A stretch of DNA of 64,000 nt from NCBI GenBank assembly GCA_035650735.1, contig DASRGZ010000191.1, forward strand, positions 1 through 64,000. The letters are read 5' to 3'. Under the pieces are notes generated by a model that saw nothing but the letters and a program-made list of their open reading frames with translations, searched no databases and was not told the origin of the DNA. Below, in pieces: positions 3,320 to 5,610 of the stretch. A program made the translations under genes and the position numbers. Within the stretch, counting starts at the first letter, position 1, and each line of letters begins with the position of its first letter. The stretch is from Chthonomonadaceae bacterium (GTDB lineage Bacteria; Armatimonadota; Chthonomonadetes; Chthonomonadales; Chthonomonadaceae).

Positions 3320-3766
3320 CTAGCTCCGGCTTGCTATCCGCGCCGCCCGGGGCGCATAGCTCTCCACATCCACGACCGGGCCGTCCGTATCTGCCAGCAG
3401 CCCCCGGCGTTCCCGGCGGATCCGCGCAACAAGCGGTCTGGAGGCCAGGAAGGGCAGCAGCAGCGCCGTGAGCAGCAGCGGCAGGACGAGCGCTTCCAGC
3501 CCGTCCAGGGCGGTATCCATCAGGAAGCCGAACAGGGGAAACACCACCGACCATAGACCTTCGAGAGGCAATTCCGAGGCGATCAGCAGCGCGGTAAGCC
3601 CCACGCCCAACCCGAACGCCAGCAGCTTCGCGCCCGGCGGCACGCGCCGATCCCGCAGCAGCGCCAGGCCGAGCCGGGCATCCAGCAGGCCGCCGGGCTG
3701 CGCATGCCGGGCCGCCGCCTTATGCAACACGCGCCTGCCCAGCAGGCGTAACAGCAATTTAAGCAT
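3320..3766 (-). CDS. DUF1232/YkvA-like membrane protein
   Basis: LLRDRRVP.GAKLL motif plus hydrophobic helices. Confidence 0.7.
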   Translation of the reverse strand: MLKLLLRLLGRRVLHKAAARHAQPGGLLDARLGLALLRDRRVPPGAKLLAFGLGVGLTALLIASELPLEGLWSVVFPLFGFLMDTALDGLEALVLPLLLTALLLPFLASRPLVARIRRERRGLLADTDGPVVDVESYAPRAARIASRS

Positions 3767-3790
3767 TGAAAACTTCCCTCCACATTCCCA

Positions 3791-3816
3791 TACGGACGGC
3801 AGACGCGCCAGGTTTC
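3791..3816 (-). promoter_or_regulatory. ECF-type promoter
   Basis: GAAAC-N17-CGTA (SigW-like) just upstream of the DUF1232-like gene. Confidence 0.45.
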
Positions 3817-3865: not shown

Positions 3866-3906
3866 AAAAAGCCTCTCAGCATACCTGGCGGTAGCTGAGA
3901 GGCTTT
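3866..3906 (-). terminator. Intrinsic terminator
   Basis: AAAGCCTCTCAGC...GCTGAGAGGCTTTTT on minus strand. Confidence 0.85.
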
Positions 3907-4277
3907 CCTGGTAGGCTCGGAATTTCACCGGGCCAAGTTAGCGAGTTTCGCTCGGTCGGCGCTGCGATGAGACTTTGATTTTGAAGCGCATTACGGTGCG
4001 CACTGCGTTTCGTGTCCTTTTTCCTGATCTAAGCAATTCCAGGTTATCGCTTGCAGGGACCCACGACGGCTGATCTTATCCCATCGCCACGCCTGCGGCG
4101 TTTCGAGTGTCCGGTGGAGTCATTGCAACCTATCCTTTCAGGTGGGTGGCCCACGATGGCCAGTTGGGTAAGAGACTGGGTTTCGTGTTGCACCTCCTCT
4201 AGGGATTATTCATCGCTCCGCCCTCTGCGACACCAACAGTATAGTGGGCGGTAGAGTGTTCCCACCGTTCTTAGTAC
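3866..4277 (-). ncRNA. Unrecognised ~410-nt structured noncoding transcript
   Basis: Bounded by consensus promoter and terminator; no minus-strand ORF in the track; many short hairpins. Confidence 0.65.
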
Positions 4278-4312
4278 GTCGTAATTATATTCTCTGATAC
4301 GTCGTAAGTCAA
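4275..4312 (-). promoter_or_regulatory. Sigma70 promoter with two operator boxes
   Basis: TTGACT-N17-TATAAT; TACGTCGTAA at 4275-4284 and 4298-4307. Confidence 0.8.
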
Positions 4313-4477
4313 CCCTAAAATGCCCTCGAGCAAGTGGTTCTTTGGTACTCAGACGCATGTATACGAATCCCGTCCTCCTCAGGAATTTTGGCCTTCTGCC
4401 CTTCCTCTAGCGTTGCCTCAGACCCGCTATCCCATAAAATAACGCAGAAAAATGCGTCCAATCCTTGCTCTTTTGCG

Positions 4478-4531
4478 TTGACATAGCGAGCATTGCATCT
4501 TATAATGCTCGTATCGAGCAAACGTTTGTTC
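4478..4531 (+). promoter_or_regulatory. Consensus sigma70 promoter and LacI-type operator
   Basis: TTGACA-N17-TATAAT; near-palindrome GAGCAAACGTTTGTTC at 4516-4531; extra IR CGAGCATT/AATGCTCG around -10. Confidence 0.85.
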
Positions 4532-4554: not shown

Positions 4555-5610
4555 ATGCGACGGACGACGCTCAAAGATATCGCTTTGCGGACGGAACTGG
4601 ATGTCTCGACAGTCTCCCGCGTGCTCAACGGCGACGGCGCGCTGCGTATCAGCGAGCGCAAGCGTGCGCAGGTGCTGCAGGTGGCAGAGGAACTGGGCTA
4701 CTCGCCCCATCTCCCCGCCCGCTCGCTGCGGCTGCAGCGTAGCTTCAATATCGGCTACGTCCTGAGCGAGCTCGCCTCCCCTTTGCCCATCCAGGGAGAC
4801 CTGGAATTCTCAGTAGCTCGCTTCCGAATCTATGGCCTGGAGGAAGCCCTCTCCGGGCGCGGCTATCTGCTCAGCCTGCTGCGCCTGCCCGCTACCGACC
4901 CGTTCGCATTGGAAGAGAAGGTGCTGCGGCGGCGTCTGGTAGATGGCCTGATCTATGGCTGTTACCTGCCTGCGGTGGAGACCCTCCAGAAGCTGGAGCG
5001 CGCAGGCTTCCCCGTGGTGTTTCTGGATCCGTTCCCGCCGAGCGCCCTGGAAGGCGCCCGGCTTAGCAGCGTCTGCTCCGACCGAAAAGCCGGGGTGCAG
5101 AGCGCCATGCGGTATCTCTGGACGCGCGGGCATTGTCGGATCGCCTTTATCAGCTCGCGCACCAACGTGCGGCGGCTGGCCGGCTACCGGTCGGCGCTGG
5201 AGGAATTGGGACTGCCCCTCGATCTGCGCCTAGTCAAGCTCTTCGATCCGCCGCGCGAAAACTCGTATATGGCGCGCGCCGCCGGATATCGCCGGATGCA
5301 GGAGCTGCTGCAGGAAGGCGTTGCCTTTACCGCCGTCCAGGCCGGAAGCGATGCCACCGCCGCTGGTGTGCTGGACGCGCTGCAGGAGGCCGGCTGTCGA
5401 GTGCCGGAGGATGTGGCGGTGATCGGATACGACGATGTGGAGGGCCTGGACGGCGCGCTCTTTGCTGAGCCGTTTTTGAGCACCGTGCGTGATCCTAATT
5501 TCGAGATGGGCATCAAGGCGGCGGAGCTGCTGTTGGCCCAGATTGAGGAGGGAGCGCAGCCAGAGAGCGCGCTGCTGCAACCGGAGCTGGTGCTGCGCGC
5601 CTCCGCGTGA
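4555..5610 (+). CDS. LacI-family transcriptional regulator
   Basis: TLKDIA...STVSRVLN HTH; VPEDVAVIGYDD; LVLRAS. Confidence 0.95.
   Translation: MRRTTLKDIALRTELDVSTVSRVLNGDGALRISERKRAQVLQVAEELGYSPHLPARSLRLQRSFNIGYVLSELASPLPIQGDLEFSVARFRIYGLEEALSGRGYLLSLLRLPATDPFALEEKVLRRRLVDGLIYGCYLPAVETLQKLERAGFPVVFLDPFPPSALEGARLSSVCSDRKAGVQSAMRYLWTRGHCRIAFISSRTNVRRLAGYRSALEELGLPLDLRLVKLFDPPRENSYMARAAGYRRMQELLQEGVAFTAVQAGSDATAAGVLDALQEAGCRVPEDVAVIGYDDVEGLDGALFAEPFLSTVRDPNFEMGIKAAELLLAQIEEGAQPESALLQPELVLRASA

What the first reader, a model, noticed from the sequence alone, without database searches (positions are those of the whole stretch)
3866..4312. Stand-alone ~410-nt structured noncoding RNA with its own promoter, twin operator and terminator
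Seen on the minus strand: TTGACT-N17-TATAAT, ~410 nt with no credible ORF, then a strong intrinsic terminator. The body is a chain of hairpins (CCGCCC/GGGCGG, CCAGU/ACUGG, GGCC/GGCC, ACCU/AGGU, ACGCC/GGCGU, GCGCA/UGCGC, AGCGA/UCGCU). It does not show the tmRNA, RNase P, SRP, T-box or riboswitch signatures I know. The downstream gene seems to have its own ECF promoter, favouring a trans-acting RNA. Best candidate in the window for an undescribed large ncRNA class.
Basis: partly seen in the sequence, partly recalled or inferred. Interest (0 to 1): 0.8.

Follow-up and report, generated by a model that had tools for sequence, protein, structure and literature searches.

The report
Free-standing RNA with two coupled mini-ORFs
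This is a conserved, stand-alone, folded RNA of about 410 bases from one bacterial family that is not purely non-coding: it appears to feed ribosomes through two tiny reading frames onto a Pro-Pro pause placed at the foot of a folded domain, like a translation-sensing switch with no neighbouring gene to control.

Summary
Promoter, terminator and fold are real (z -3.63). There is no Rfam match. Homologs occur in 40 of 42 genomes of the family (Chthonomonadaceae by record titles) and none was confirmed outside it. 'No credible ORF' is wrong. All 40 distinct copies encode Thr-Pro-Pro-Asp/Gly in a short frame (ORF2, window 4123-4076), with mainly synonymous variation. An upstream frame (ORF1, 4186-4130) starts after a second Shine-Dalgarno, at ACG in 13 copies. 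It stops at or just before ORF2, or fuses with it (37 of 37; nulls 9-23). In one genus the ORF2 AUG is lost and ORF1 is fused in frame to TPPD. A 3' domain with covarying helices begins where a ribosome paused on Pro-Pro would end. Downstream genes vary and are often convergent, and no antiterminator was found, so it is not a cis attenuator. The twin 'operator' occurs in 1 of 37 copies. Best reading: a free-standing EF-P/prolyl-tRNA-sensing RNA whose output is its 3' domain (inferred). No expression data were obtained. The scan found this family before on another genome (e1-7416792); ORF1 coupling and ACG starts are not in the part of that note shown.

The parts
3866..4277 (-). Predicted transcript, about 412 nt (start inferred 7 nt after the -10; end in the U-tract)
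   Evidence: ends not measured
4284..4312 (-). sigma70-type promoter TTGACT-17-TATAAT
   Evidence: near-consensus promoter in 34 of 40 copies
4275..4307 (.). Twin TTACGACGTA 10-mers (4275-4284, 4298-4307); possible species-specific operator, not conserved
   Evidence: 1 of 37 homologs
4339..4367 (-). Conserved upstream element (consensus GTAGAC..GTCT.GGTAC(C/T)AAAG), function unknown
   Evidence: 14 of 37 regex hits, one (L003) mis-anchored; top PWM site in the genome at 34 bits vs next 19, but the PWM includes this site
4218..4251 (-). 5' hairpin (CCGCCC/GGGCGG); sequence varies among homologs
4193..4198 (-). SD1 (AGGAGG)
   Evidence: AGGAGG or near match in 37 of 37, required by the pattern for part of the set
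4130..4186 (-). ORF1: ACG start, 18 codons, ends K-G-TAG; start codon sits in stem P2
4140..4194 (-). P2 stem-loop (CACGA/UCGUG core, CCAGU/ACUGG distal) covering SD1 end and ORF1 start
   Evidence: column covariation not above shuffles on MAFFT alignment A5
4133..4139 (-). SD2 (GAAAGGA) inside the end of ORF1
4076..4123 (-). ORF2, MTPPDTRNAAGVAMG; conserved part is T-P-P-(D/G)
3958..4093 (-). 3' domain: closing helices (4093-4078 with 3973-3958), helix 4066-4057 with 4017-4010, three-way junction
3986..4001 (-). Most conserved hairpin of the 3' domain (GCGCA/UGCGC; family mode GCGCG-7 nt-CGCGC)
   Evidence: 87.6% of cells paired, 4 of 5 pairs with two-sided changes
3866..3906 (-). Intrinsic terminator
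3791..3816 (-). ECF-type promoter (GAAAC-N17-CGTA) of the next gene; separate unit
3320..3766 (-). Downstream 148-aa probable membrane protein, no Pfam family; frequent but not constant neighbour

Best explanation
A family-wide, mostly single-copy, free-standing RNA gene that works as a translation-gated device. (1) A strong sigma70 promoter and an intrinsic terminator make a transcript of about 360-490 nt (signals shown; transcription not measured). (2) Ribosomes are fed in at SD1/ORF1, whose start (AUG or near-cognate ACG) is buried in stem P2. They are handed to ORF2 by AUGA overlap, by a stop 6-9 nt upstream plus SD2, or by in-frame fusion (the pattern is shown; translation is inferred). 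(3) They pause on Thr-Pro(CCA)-Pro-Asp/Gly, an EF-P- and prolyl-tRNA-dependent motif (inferred from E. coli data). (4) A ribosome paused there ends about at +25, where the closing helix of the 3' domain begins. One that runs on to the stop, most often at codon 9 or 13, must unwind that helix (geometry shown; consequence inferred). (5) Because no gene is controlled in cis, the output is the fold, stability or availability of the conserved 3' domain acting in trans on a protein or the ribosome (inferred by elimination; partner unknown).
For: Distribution: 40 of 42 family genomes. ORF2 codons in 37 copies: ATG 35/GTG 1/ATA 1; ACG 31/ACT 6; CCA 35/CCG 2; CCG 27/CCT 10; GAC 22/GAT 8/GGT 6/GGC 1. 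ORF2 <=20 aa in 37 of 37 vs 17.9 expected. CCA as first Pro: 35 of 37 vs 8 of 254 genomic TPP motifs; CCA tunes pausing in E. coli (PMC8129111, passages). PPD was found only among pausing motifs (PMC4140641, passages). ORF1 is open and correctly terminated in 37 of 37 vs 23.4/16.3/9.3 under three shuffles, and in 13 of 13 ACG copies vs 6.9/4.2. An early stop occurs in 14 of 17 copies where ORF1 is in ORF2's frame and 0 of 20 where AUGA provides the stop. L095 has AUG where the window has ACG, with the partner strand changed to keep pairing. Three genomes of genus g4 were found only with the 3'-domain model; they lost the ORF2 AUG (now TTA), have ORF1 fused in frame to TPPD, use ACA or ACT for Thr, and keep the stop at codon 13. 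3' helices: 16 two-sided changes vs 6.5 shuffled, 0 of 500 shuffles as high. The GAGG-type strand starts at +25/26 in 26 of 40 and stops fall at codon 9 or 13 in 27 of 40. The next gene is convergent in 13 of 40, co-oriented but varied in 16, unresolved in 11. efp is present.
Against: No transcription or translation data were obtained. Copies are related, so the counts are not independent (tree). 16 of the 37 copies came from a pattern that required ACK-CCA-CCK-G, and 14 more from a profile built on them, so codon invariance is inflated; only 7 (synteny) plus 3 (3' model) are free of this. The strong K (G/U) third-position bias and near-invariant CCA could be nucleotide-level constraints. P2 covariation was not above shuffles. 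The closing-helix duplex test was modest: mean z -1.26, 11 of 36 below -2. In folding with a blocked footprint, the 70 nt before the terminator were barely more exposed when the ribosome moved to the stop (0.41 vs 0.43). ACG is a weak start; the passages read show only that it initiates detectably in E. coli (10.1101/063800). No partner for the 3' domain was identified.
Confidence: 0.45

Rival explanations
1. Ribosome- or EF-P-parking RNA: the pause is not a switch but the product. The 3' domain docks on the stalled ribosome or on EF-P and holds it, as a storage or titration device.
For: Near-consensus promoters suggest abundance. Spacing from TPP to the structure is fixed. The conserved hairpin GCGC-N9-GCGC (16 of 40, modal) matches the D-arm of the only one of 50 genomic tRNAs with that pattern, tRNA-Pro(UGG), which reads CCA. 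A 9-nt loop on a stable 4-bp D-stem is the EF-P determinant (PMC4890201, passages).
Against: The first and last of the 9 nt pair in 12 of the 16 cases (my count), so the hairpin is more likely 5 bp plus a 7-nt loop. 14 of 40 lack the pattern, which occurs in 9% of random 120-nt windows. ORF2 keeps a nearby stop, which suggests run-through and release.
Confidence: 0.15
2. Purely non-coding RNA. The SD-like, AUG and CCACC motifs are binding or pairing sites (CsrA sponge or anti-SD base-pairing sRNA) and the ORFs are incidental.
For: Two to three GGA motifs, often AGGAUG, which resembles the CsrA site (consensus recalled). csrA is in 39 of 42 family genomes. Third-position bias is unusually strict.
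Against: Frame logic of ORF1, start-codon-type variation, and in-frame fusion when the AUG is lost. G013 (98% complete) has the RNA but no csrA hit. There are few GGA motifs for a sponge.
Confidence: 0.12
3. A small mRNA whose peptide(s) act in trans; the structure only controls translation and stability.
For: Two SD sites, conserved coupling, and conserved MTPP(D/G).
Against: Beyond residue 5, ORF2 varies in frame and length (8-20 aa). ORF1 peptides are not conserved. TPPD is internal rather than N-terminal in 6 of 40 copies. About 150 nt of conserved structure lie beyond the stop.
Confidence: 0.1
4. A cis attenuator or relic attenuator of the 148-aa membrane-protein gene.
For: That gene follows the RNA in 11 of 40 copies across several genera, probably the ancestral site. 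The anatomy resembles mgtL/mgtP leaders (PMC6460261, passages).
Against: 13 of 40 copies are followed by convergent genes. The gene has its own conserved ECF-type promoter (22 of 30). No own-copy antiterminator pairing: foreign partners pair as well (0.44, 0.57), and terminator pairing is unchanged by ribosome position.
Confidence: 0.1

Closest known systems
Salmonella mgtA leader (mgtL) and mgtCBR leader (mgtP; mgtM from the earlier scan note and recall)
   Same: A long structured RNA with proline-codon ORF(s) whose EF-P-dependent stalling selects between folds (PMC6460261, passages).
   Different: Those leaders control a downstream operon in cis. Here there is a constant terminator, no antiterminator and variable, often convergent neighbours; there is also a coupled feeder ORF, often with an ACG start.
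mgtQ intergenic small ORF (PMC8092293, title, short abstract and section list only)
   Same: A small ORF whose translation remodels stem-loops and licenses a downstream initiation site.
   Different: mgtQ serves a real downstream gene (mgtB) through acidic residues; here the downstream ORF is itself only 8-20 codons.
B. subtilis spyA (S1025)/Rae1 stalled-ribosome cleavage (10.1101/2025.06.04.657793, abstract and section list only)
   Same: A short ORF with a ribosome pause, including at a Pro-Pro motif without EF-P, sets the fate of the RNA.
   Different: Rae1 (PF05991) was found in 0 of 68 genomes of the order.
Large ornate ncRNAs (ROOL, GOLLD, OLE, raiA motif; features recalled)
   Same: Stand-alone, several hundred nt, multi-helix, function unknown.
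   Different: No Rfam match. Those are not known to me to carry SD-initiated conserved mini-ORFs; none of the viral pattern hits was a member.
Dual-function RNAs (SgrS, SR1) and attenuator-derived trans RNAs (rnTrpL); recalled
   Same: Stand-alone transcript with both a small ORF and an RNA part.
   Different: Their peptides are conserved products. Here only a 4-residue stall motif and its position are conserved, and no base-pairing target was identified.

Membership tests
Any Rfam 15 family | Covariance-model match at gathering score | tested here: not met
   0 hits at E<=10 in the window region; only sub-threshold noise in L003; only an unrelated tRNA in 10 homolog loci
tmRNA / RNase P / 6S | Model match, or being the genome's missing copy | tested here: not met
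   No match; each has its own gene elsewhere in G000. SRP presence elsewhere was not checked.
Leader-peptide attenuator (mgtL/mgtP type) | Short ORF with conserved sensor codons | tested here: met
   TPP(D/G) in 40 of 40 copies
Leader-peptide attenuator (mgtL/mgtP type) | A functionally consistent co-oriented downstream gene | tested here: not met
   13 of 40 convergent, 16 co-oriented of 6 different kinds, 11 unresolved
Leader-peptide attenuator (mgtL/mgtP type) | Alternative terminator/antiterminator set by ribosome position | tested here: not met
   (folding only; Rho-dependent control not testable)
Leader-peptide attenuator (mgtL/mgtP type) | EF-P-dependent ribosome stalling on the ORF | not testable with these tools
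   efp present; motif class from PMC4140641
Type I toxin-antitoxin mRNA (hok/mok-like coupled ORFs) | Hydrophobic membrane peptide downstream of the leader ORF | tested here: not met
   ORF2 is 8-20 aa and polar in 37 of 37; antisense partner not searched
CsrB/RsmZ-type CsrA sponge | Many GGA motifs in loops and co-occurrence with csrA | tested here: inconclusive
   Only 2-3 GGA motifs, within SD sites; csrA 39 of 42, no hit in G013 (98% complete), which has the RNA
Dual-function sRNA | Conserved functional peptide plus base-pairing region with a target | tested here: inconclusive
   Peptide not conserved beyond 5 residues; target search not done

The most novel reading that the evidence does not exclude
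A new class of RNA device: a stand-alone ribosome-loaded sensor. A gated feeder ORF (a near-cognate ACG start in a third of copies, possibly reading initiation fidelity) delivers ribosomes to a CCA-Pro-Pro pause that reads EF-P and tRNA-Pro(UGG) supply. The paused ribosome keeps a conserved three-way-junction domain folded, and that domain acts in trans on, or docks onto, the translation machinery. It would be an attenuator-like switch whose output is an RNA structure rather than a gene.
Probability: 0.25. Interest if true: 0.9.

Novelty: categorically new. Interest (0 to 1): 0.72.

Why it matters
The stall-peptide sensors I know of in bacteria regulate a neighbouring gene. An element kept in 40 of 42 genomes of a family, with the sensor anatomy but no gene to control, implies a different output: a trans-acting RNA state reporting EF-P or prolyl-tRNA supply. 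It also offers a natural series (AUG vs ACG start, AUGA overlap vs upstream stop vs fusion) that makes near-cognate initiation and translational coupling directly testable. The whole unit is about 410 nt and can be assayed in vitro with purified translation components. Limits: it is confined to one little-studied family, and neither expression nor function is shown here.

Tried and rejected
BLAST-type search of 61 related genomes found only one homolog. A 24-nt pattern in 401 phylum genomes gave one unrelated 3-mismatch hit. The metagenome pattern scan gave 6 loci: 2 identical to copies already held and 4 without the architecture. Three viral pattern scans gave 0, 0 and 8 hits; none of the 8 has the architecture. 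5 of 27 genome-contig hits (L046, L049, L051, L056, L070) were dropped as chance: other phyla, no promoter or structure. 6 more were duplicates. Weak R1 hits L111, L113, L116, L118 and L119 were dropped after inspection; L117 and L120 were left uncounted as doubtful. Phylum sample with R1: 11 of 151 genomes hit, 9 of them in the family; the two outside are weak, and L124 was not inspected. R2 found 0 of 26 in the two sister families. No member was found in G014 (94% complete, 940 contigs) or G010 (79%). No RNA holder was listed, so no reads were laid. RNAalifold on MAFFT alignments gave little consensus for 7 copies. P2 covariation was not above shuffles. Rae1 cleavage model rejected. Antiterminator rejected. 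TACG-N-CGTA as a regulon operator: 31 genomic sites, not enriched over permuted palindromes. T4 gene-60-like bypass at GGA-stop was considered (recalled) and rejected because no long frame lies in the RNA. Integration-site idea from two copies in G031: they are part of a 1.3-kb duplication. Literature searches without a description of this element: (open-access library only). No supplements were read; supplementary motif lists of large RNA-motif surveys could hold it.

Full report
OBSERVATION. On the minus strand there is TTGACT-17-TATAAT at 4312-4284, about 410 nt without a long ORF, and a 13-bp hairpin with a U-tract at 3906-3866. The region folds better than 100 of 100 shuffles (z -3.63, terminator included). 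Rfam gives nothing at E<=10, and the genome has RNase P, 6S and tmRNA elsewhere. The twin TTACGACGTA is exact and is the only tandem pair of that palindrome in the genome, but it is present in only 1 of 37 homologs. The ECF-type promoter of the next gene is real as a motif: 22 of 30 homologous loci vs 0.2% background.

FAMILY. DNA search of 61 relatives found one homolog at 69% identity with the same downstream gene. Searching the order with the downstream 148-aa protein and scanning the 30 returned loci with a profile gave five more, each directly upstream of that gene. A pattern built from these seven found 27 loci among 185,579 species genomes. 22 were titled Chthonomonadaceae, Chthonomonadales, Chthonomonas or Armatimonadota; five from other phyla were dropped and six were duplicates. 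A sequence model of the 5' core (R1) added 14 distinct copies. A model of the 3' domain (R2) added three weak (E 0.01-0.02) but syntenic copies in genus g4. The total is 40 distinct copies, and 40 of 42 family genomes carry one; the two without are 94% complete in 940 contigs and 79% complete. No member was confirmed in 26 genomes of the two sister families, in a 151-genome phylum sample or in viral contigs. A near-consensus promoter precedes 34 of 40 copies. A terminator-like hairpin follows 35 of 38 copies with enough sequence, vs 34 of 150 random windows under the same loose rule.

IT IS NOT SIMPLY NON-CODING. All seven synteny-found copies have SD (GAA(A/G)GG), a spacer, then ATG/GTG-Thr-Pro-Pro-Asp/Gly, 157-163 nt after the -10. 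Over 37 copies, variation in these five codons is in start-codon type, synonymous, or Asp to Gly. ORF2 is 8-20 codons in 37 of 37 vs 17.9 expected. After residue 5 the frame and length vary, so the conserved thing is the motif, not a peptide. Caveat: 30 of the 37 were found with queries that favour these codons.

A second SD (AGGAGG) about 55 nt upstream is followed within 2-16 nt by a start codon: ATG 22, ACG 13, GTG 1, TTG 1. Its frame is open and ends by AUGA overlap (20), by a stop 6-9 nt before ORF2 (14), or fuses with ORF2 (3). This holds in 37 of 37 against 23.4, 16.3 and 9.3 under three shuffling schemes, and in 13 of 13 ACG copies against 6.9 and 4.2. When ORF1 shares ORF2's frame an early stop is present in 14 of 17; when AUGA supplies the stop it is present in 0 of 20. 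These copies are related, so nominal p-values overstate. L095 has AUG at the position of the window's ACG, with the opposite strand of the stem changed to match. Within one well-supported clade, two copies are fused and two AUGA-coupled. The strongest independent evidence is genus g4, found without the 5' core: the ORF2 AUG has become TTA, ORF1 runs in frame into TPPD, Thr is ACA or ACT, and the stop is still at codon 13. In the window, ORF1 is 4186-4130 (ACG start) and ORF2 is 4123-4076.

STRUCTURE. Each copy inspected folds into a 5' hairpin, a stem-loop P2 over SD1 and the ORF1 start, and a long 3' domain (the output was partly cut). On a plain MAFFT alignment of 29 of the 37 copies (8 divergent or truncated ones left out), two 3' helices chosen from that alignment are 81% paired with 16 two-sided changes vs 6.5 in shuffles (0 of 500). 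The tool warns that relatedness inflates this measure. P2 did not exceed shuffles on the 23-copy alignment, which is visibly out of register there. The long closing helices gave a modest duplex signal (mean z -1.26; 11 of 36 below -2), though several show clear strand swaps, such as GGCGU/GCGCC vs GGUAC/GUACC. The 5' strand of the outer helix starts at +25/+26 from the ORF2 start in 26 of 40 copies, and stops fall at codon 9 or 13 in 27 of 40. A ribosome with the second Pro in its P site covers to about +25 (footprint size recalled), so a pause leaves the domain intact and run-through opens its base.

NOT A CIS LEADER. The next gene is convergent in 13 copies, is the 148-aa gene in 11, is one of five unrelated co-oriented genes in 5, and is unresolved in 11. 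SD1 or the outer-helix strand pairs with its own terminator arm no better than with foreign ones, and blocking a ribosome footprint at the pause or at the stop does not change terminator pairing.

MECHANISM. Shown: promoter and terminator signals, family-wide conservation, coupled frames, motif position and some covarying helices. Inferred: translation, a pause at TPP(D/G), and an output through the 3' domain. PPD was found only among pausing motifs in E. coli (PMC4140641, passages). CCA, used as first Pro in 35 of 37 copies vs 8 of 254 genomic TPP motifs, tunes pause strength through limiting tRNA (PMC8129111, passages). ACG initiates detectably in E. coli (10.1101/063800, passages). efp is present and Rae1 is not (0 of 68). 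I put about 0.9 on a real transcript, 0.85 on translation of the ORFs, 0.65 on the Pro-Pro pause being the sensed event, and 0.45 on the whole switch model. The rivals are ribosome/EF-P parking (0.15), a pure ncRNA (0.12), a peptide product (0.10) and a cis attenuator (0.10). The likeness of the conserved hairpin to the tRNA-Pro(UGG) D-arm (PMC4890201, passages) is a weak lead, because the loop ends usually pair.

COMPARISON AND NOVELTY. It works most like the mgtL/mgtP proline-sensing leaders (PMC6460261, passages) but fails their defining features of a controlled gene and an antiterminator. It matches no Rfam family, and five searches of the open-access library found no description; supplements were not read. 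An earlier agent of this scan reported the same family on another genome (e1-7416792, unchecked AI note), including a claim of abundance that I could not test. The lines shown do not mention ORF1, the ACG starts or the fused g4 form. I rate it categorically new in architecture, with the function inferred and the range limited to one family.

Noticed in passing
window 4339-4367 (-): A conserved element (GTAGAC/GTATAC ... GTAC(C/T)AAAG) 25-50 nt upstream of the -35 in about 13 of 37 homologs; no comparable site elsewhere in G000. Locus-specific regulator site or second promoter; unexplained.
   Followed up: partly
window 4478-4531 (+), gene 4555-5610: Divergent LacI-family regulator with a perfect TTGACA-17-TATAAT promoter and a palindrome at 4516-4531. 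It is not a conserved neighbour of the RNA.
   Followed up: partly
window 3320-3816 (-): 148-aa probable membrane protein without a Pfam family (weak DUF1232 look-alike, score 0.81), in 35 of 68 order genomes, with a conserved GAAAC-N16/17-CGT(A/C) ECF-type promoter in 22 of 30 loci.
   Followed up: partly
L120 (G013) and L117 (G037): Possible divergent paralog or truncated relative: SD plus (M/V)TPPD short ORFs without a clear SD1 or 3'-model hit; L117 is in a sister family. Not counted.
   Followed up: no
L096/L115 (G031:C56): Two near-identical copies 2.1 kb apart within a 1.3-kb duplication, next to a serine recombinase gene; one copy lacks the terminator. May be an assembly artefact.
   Followed up: partly
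L030 and L059/L114 (G033): One genome carries two divergent copies of the RNA gene; the assembly has 7% contamination.
   Followed up: no
L105, L108 (genus g3): ORF1 itself begins M-L-P-P, a second Pro-Pro motif, behind a longer 5' region.
   Followed up: no
L113, L116: A different conserved intergenic stretch shared by G010 and G019 gave weak R1 hits; it may be another structured RNA.
   Followed up: no
L008:2200-2701 (-): Metagenome pattern hit in an apparently ORF-poor stretch ending in a T-run; not a member by profile (E 0.38).
   Followed up: no
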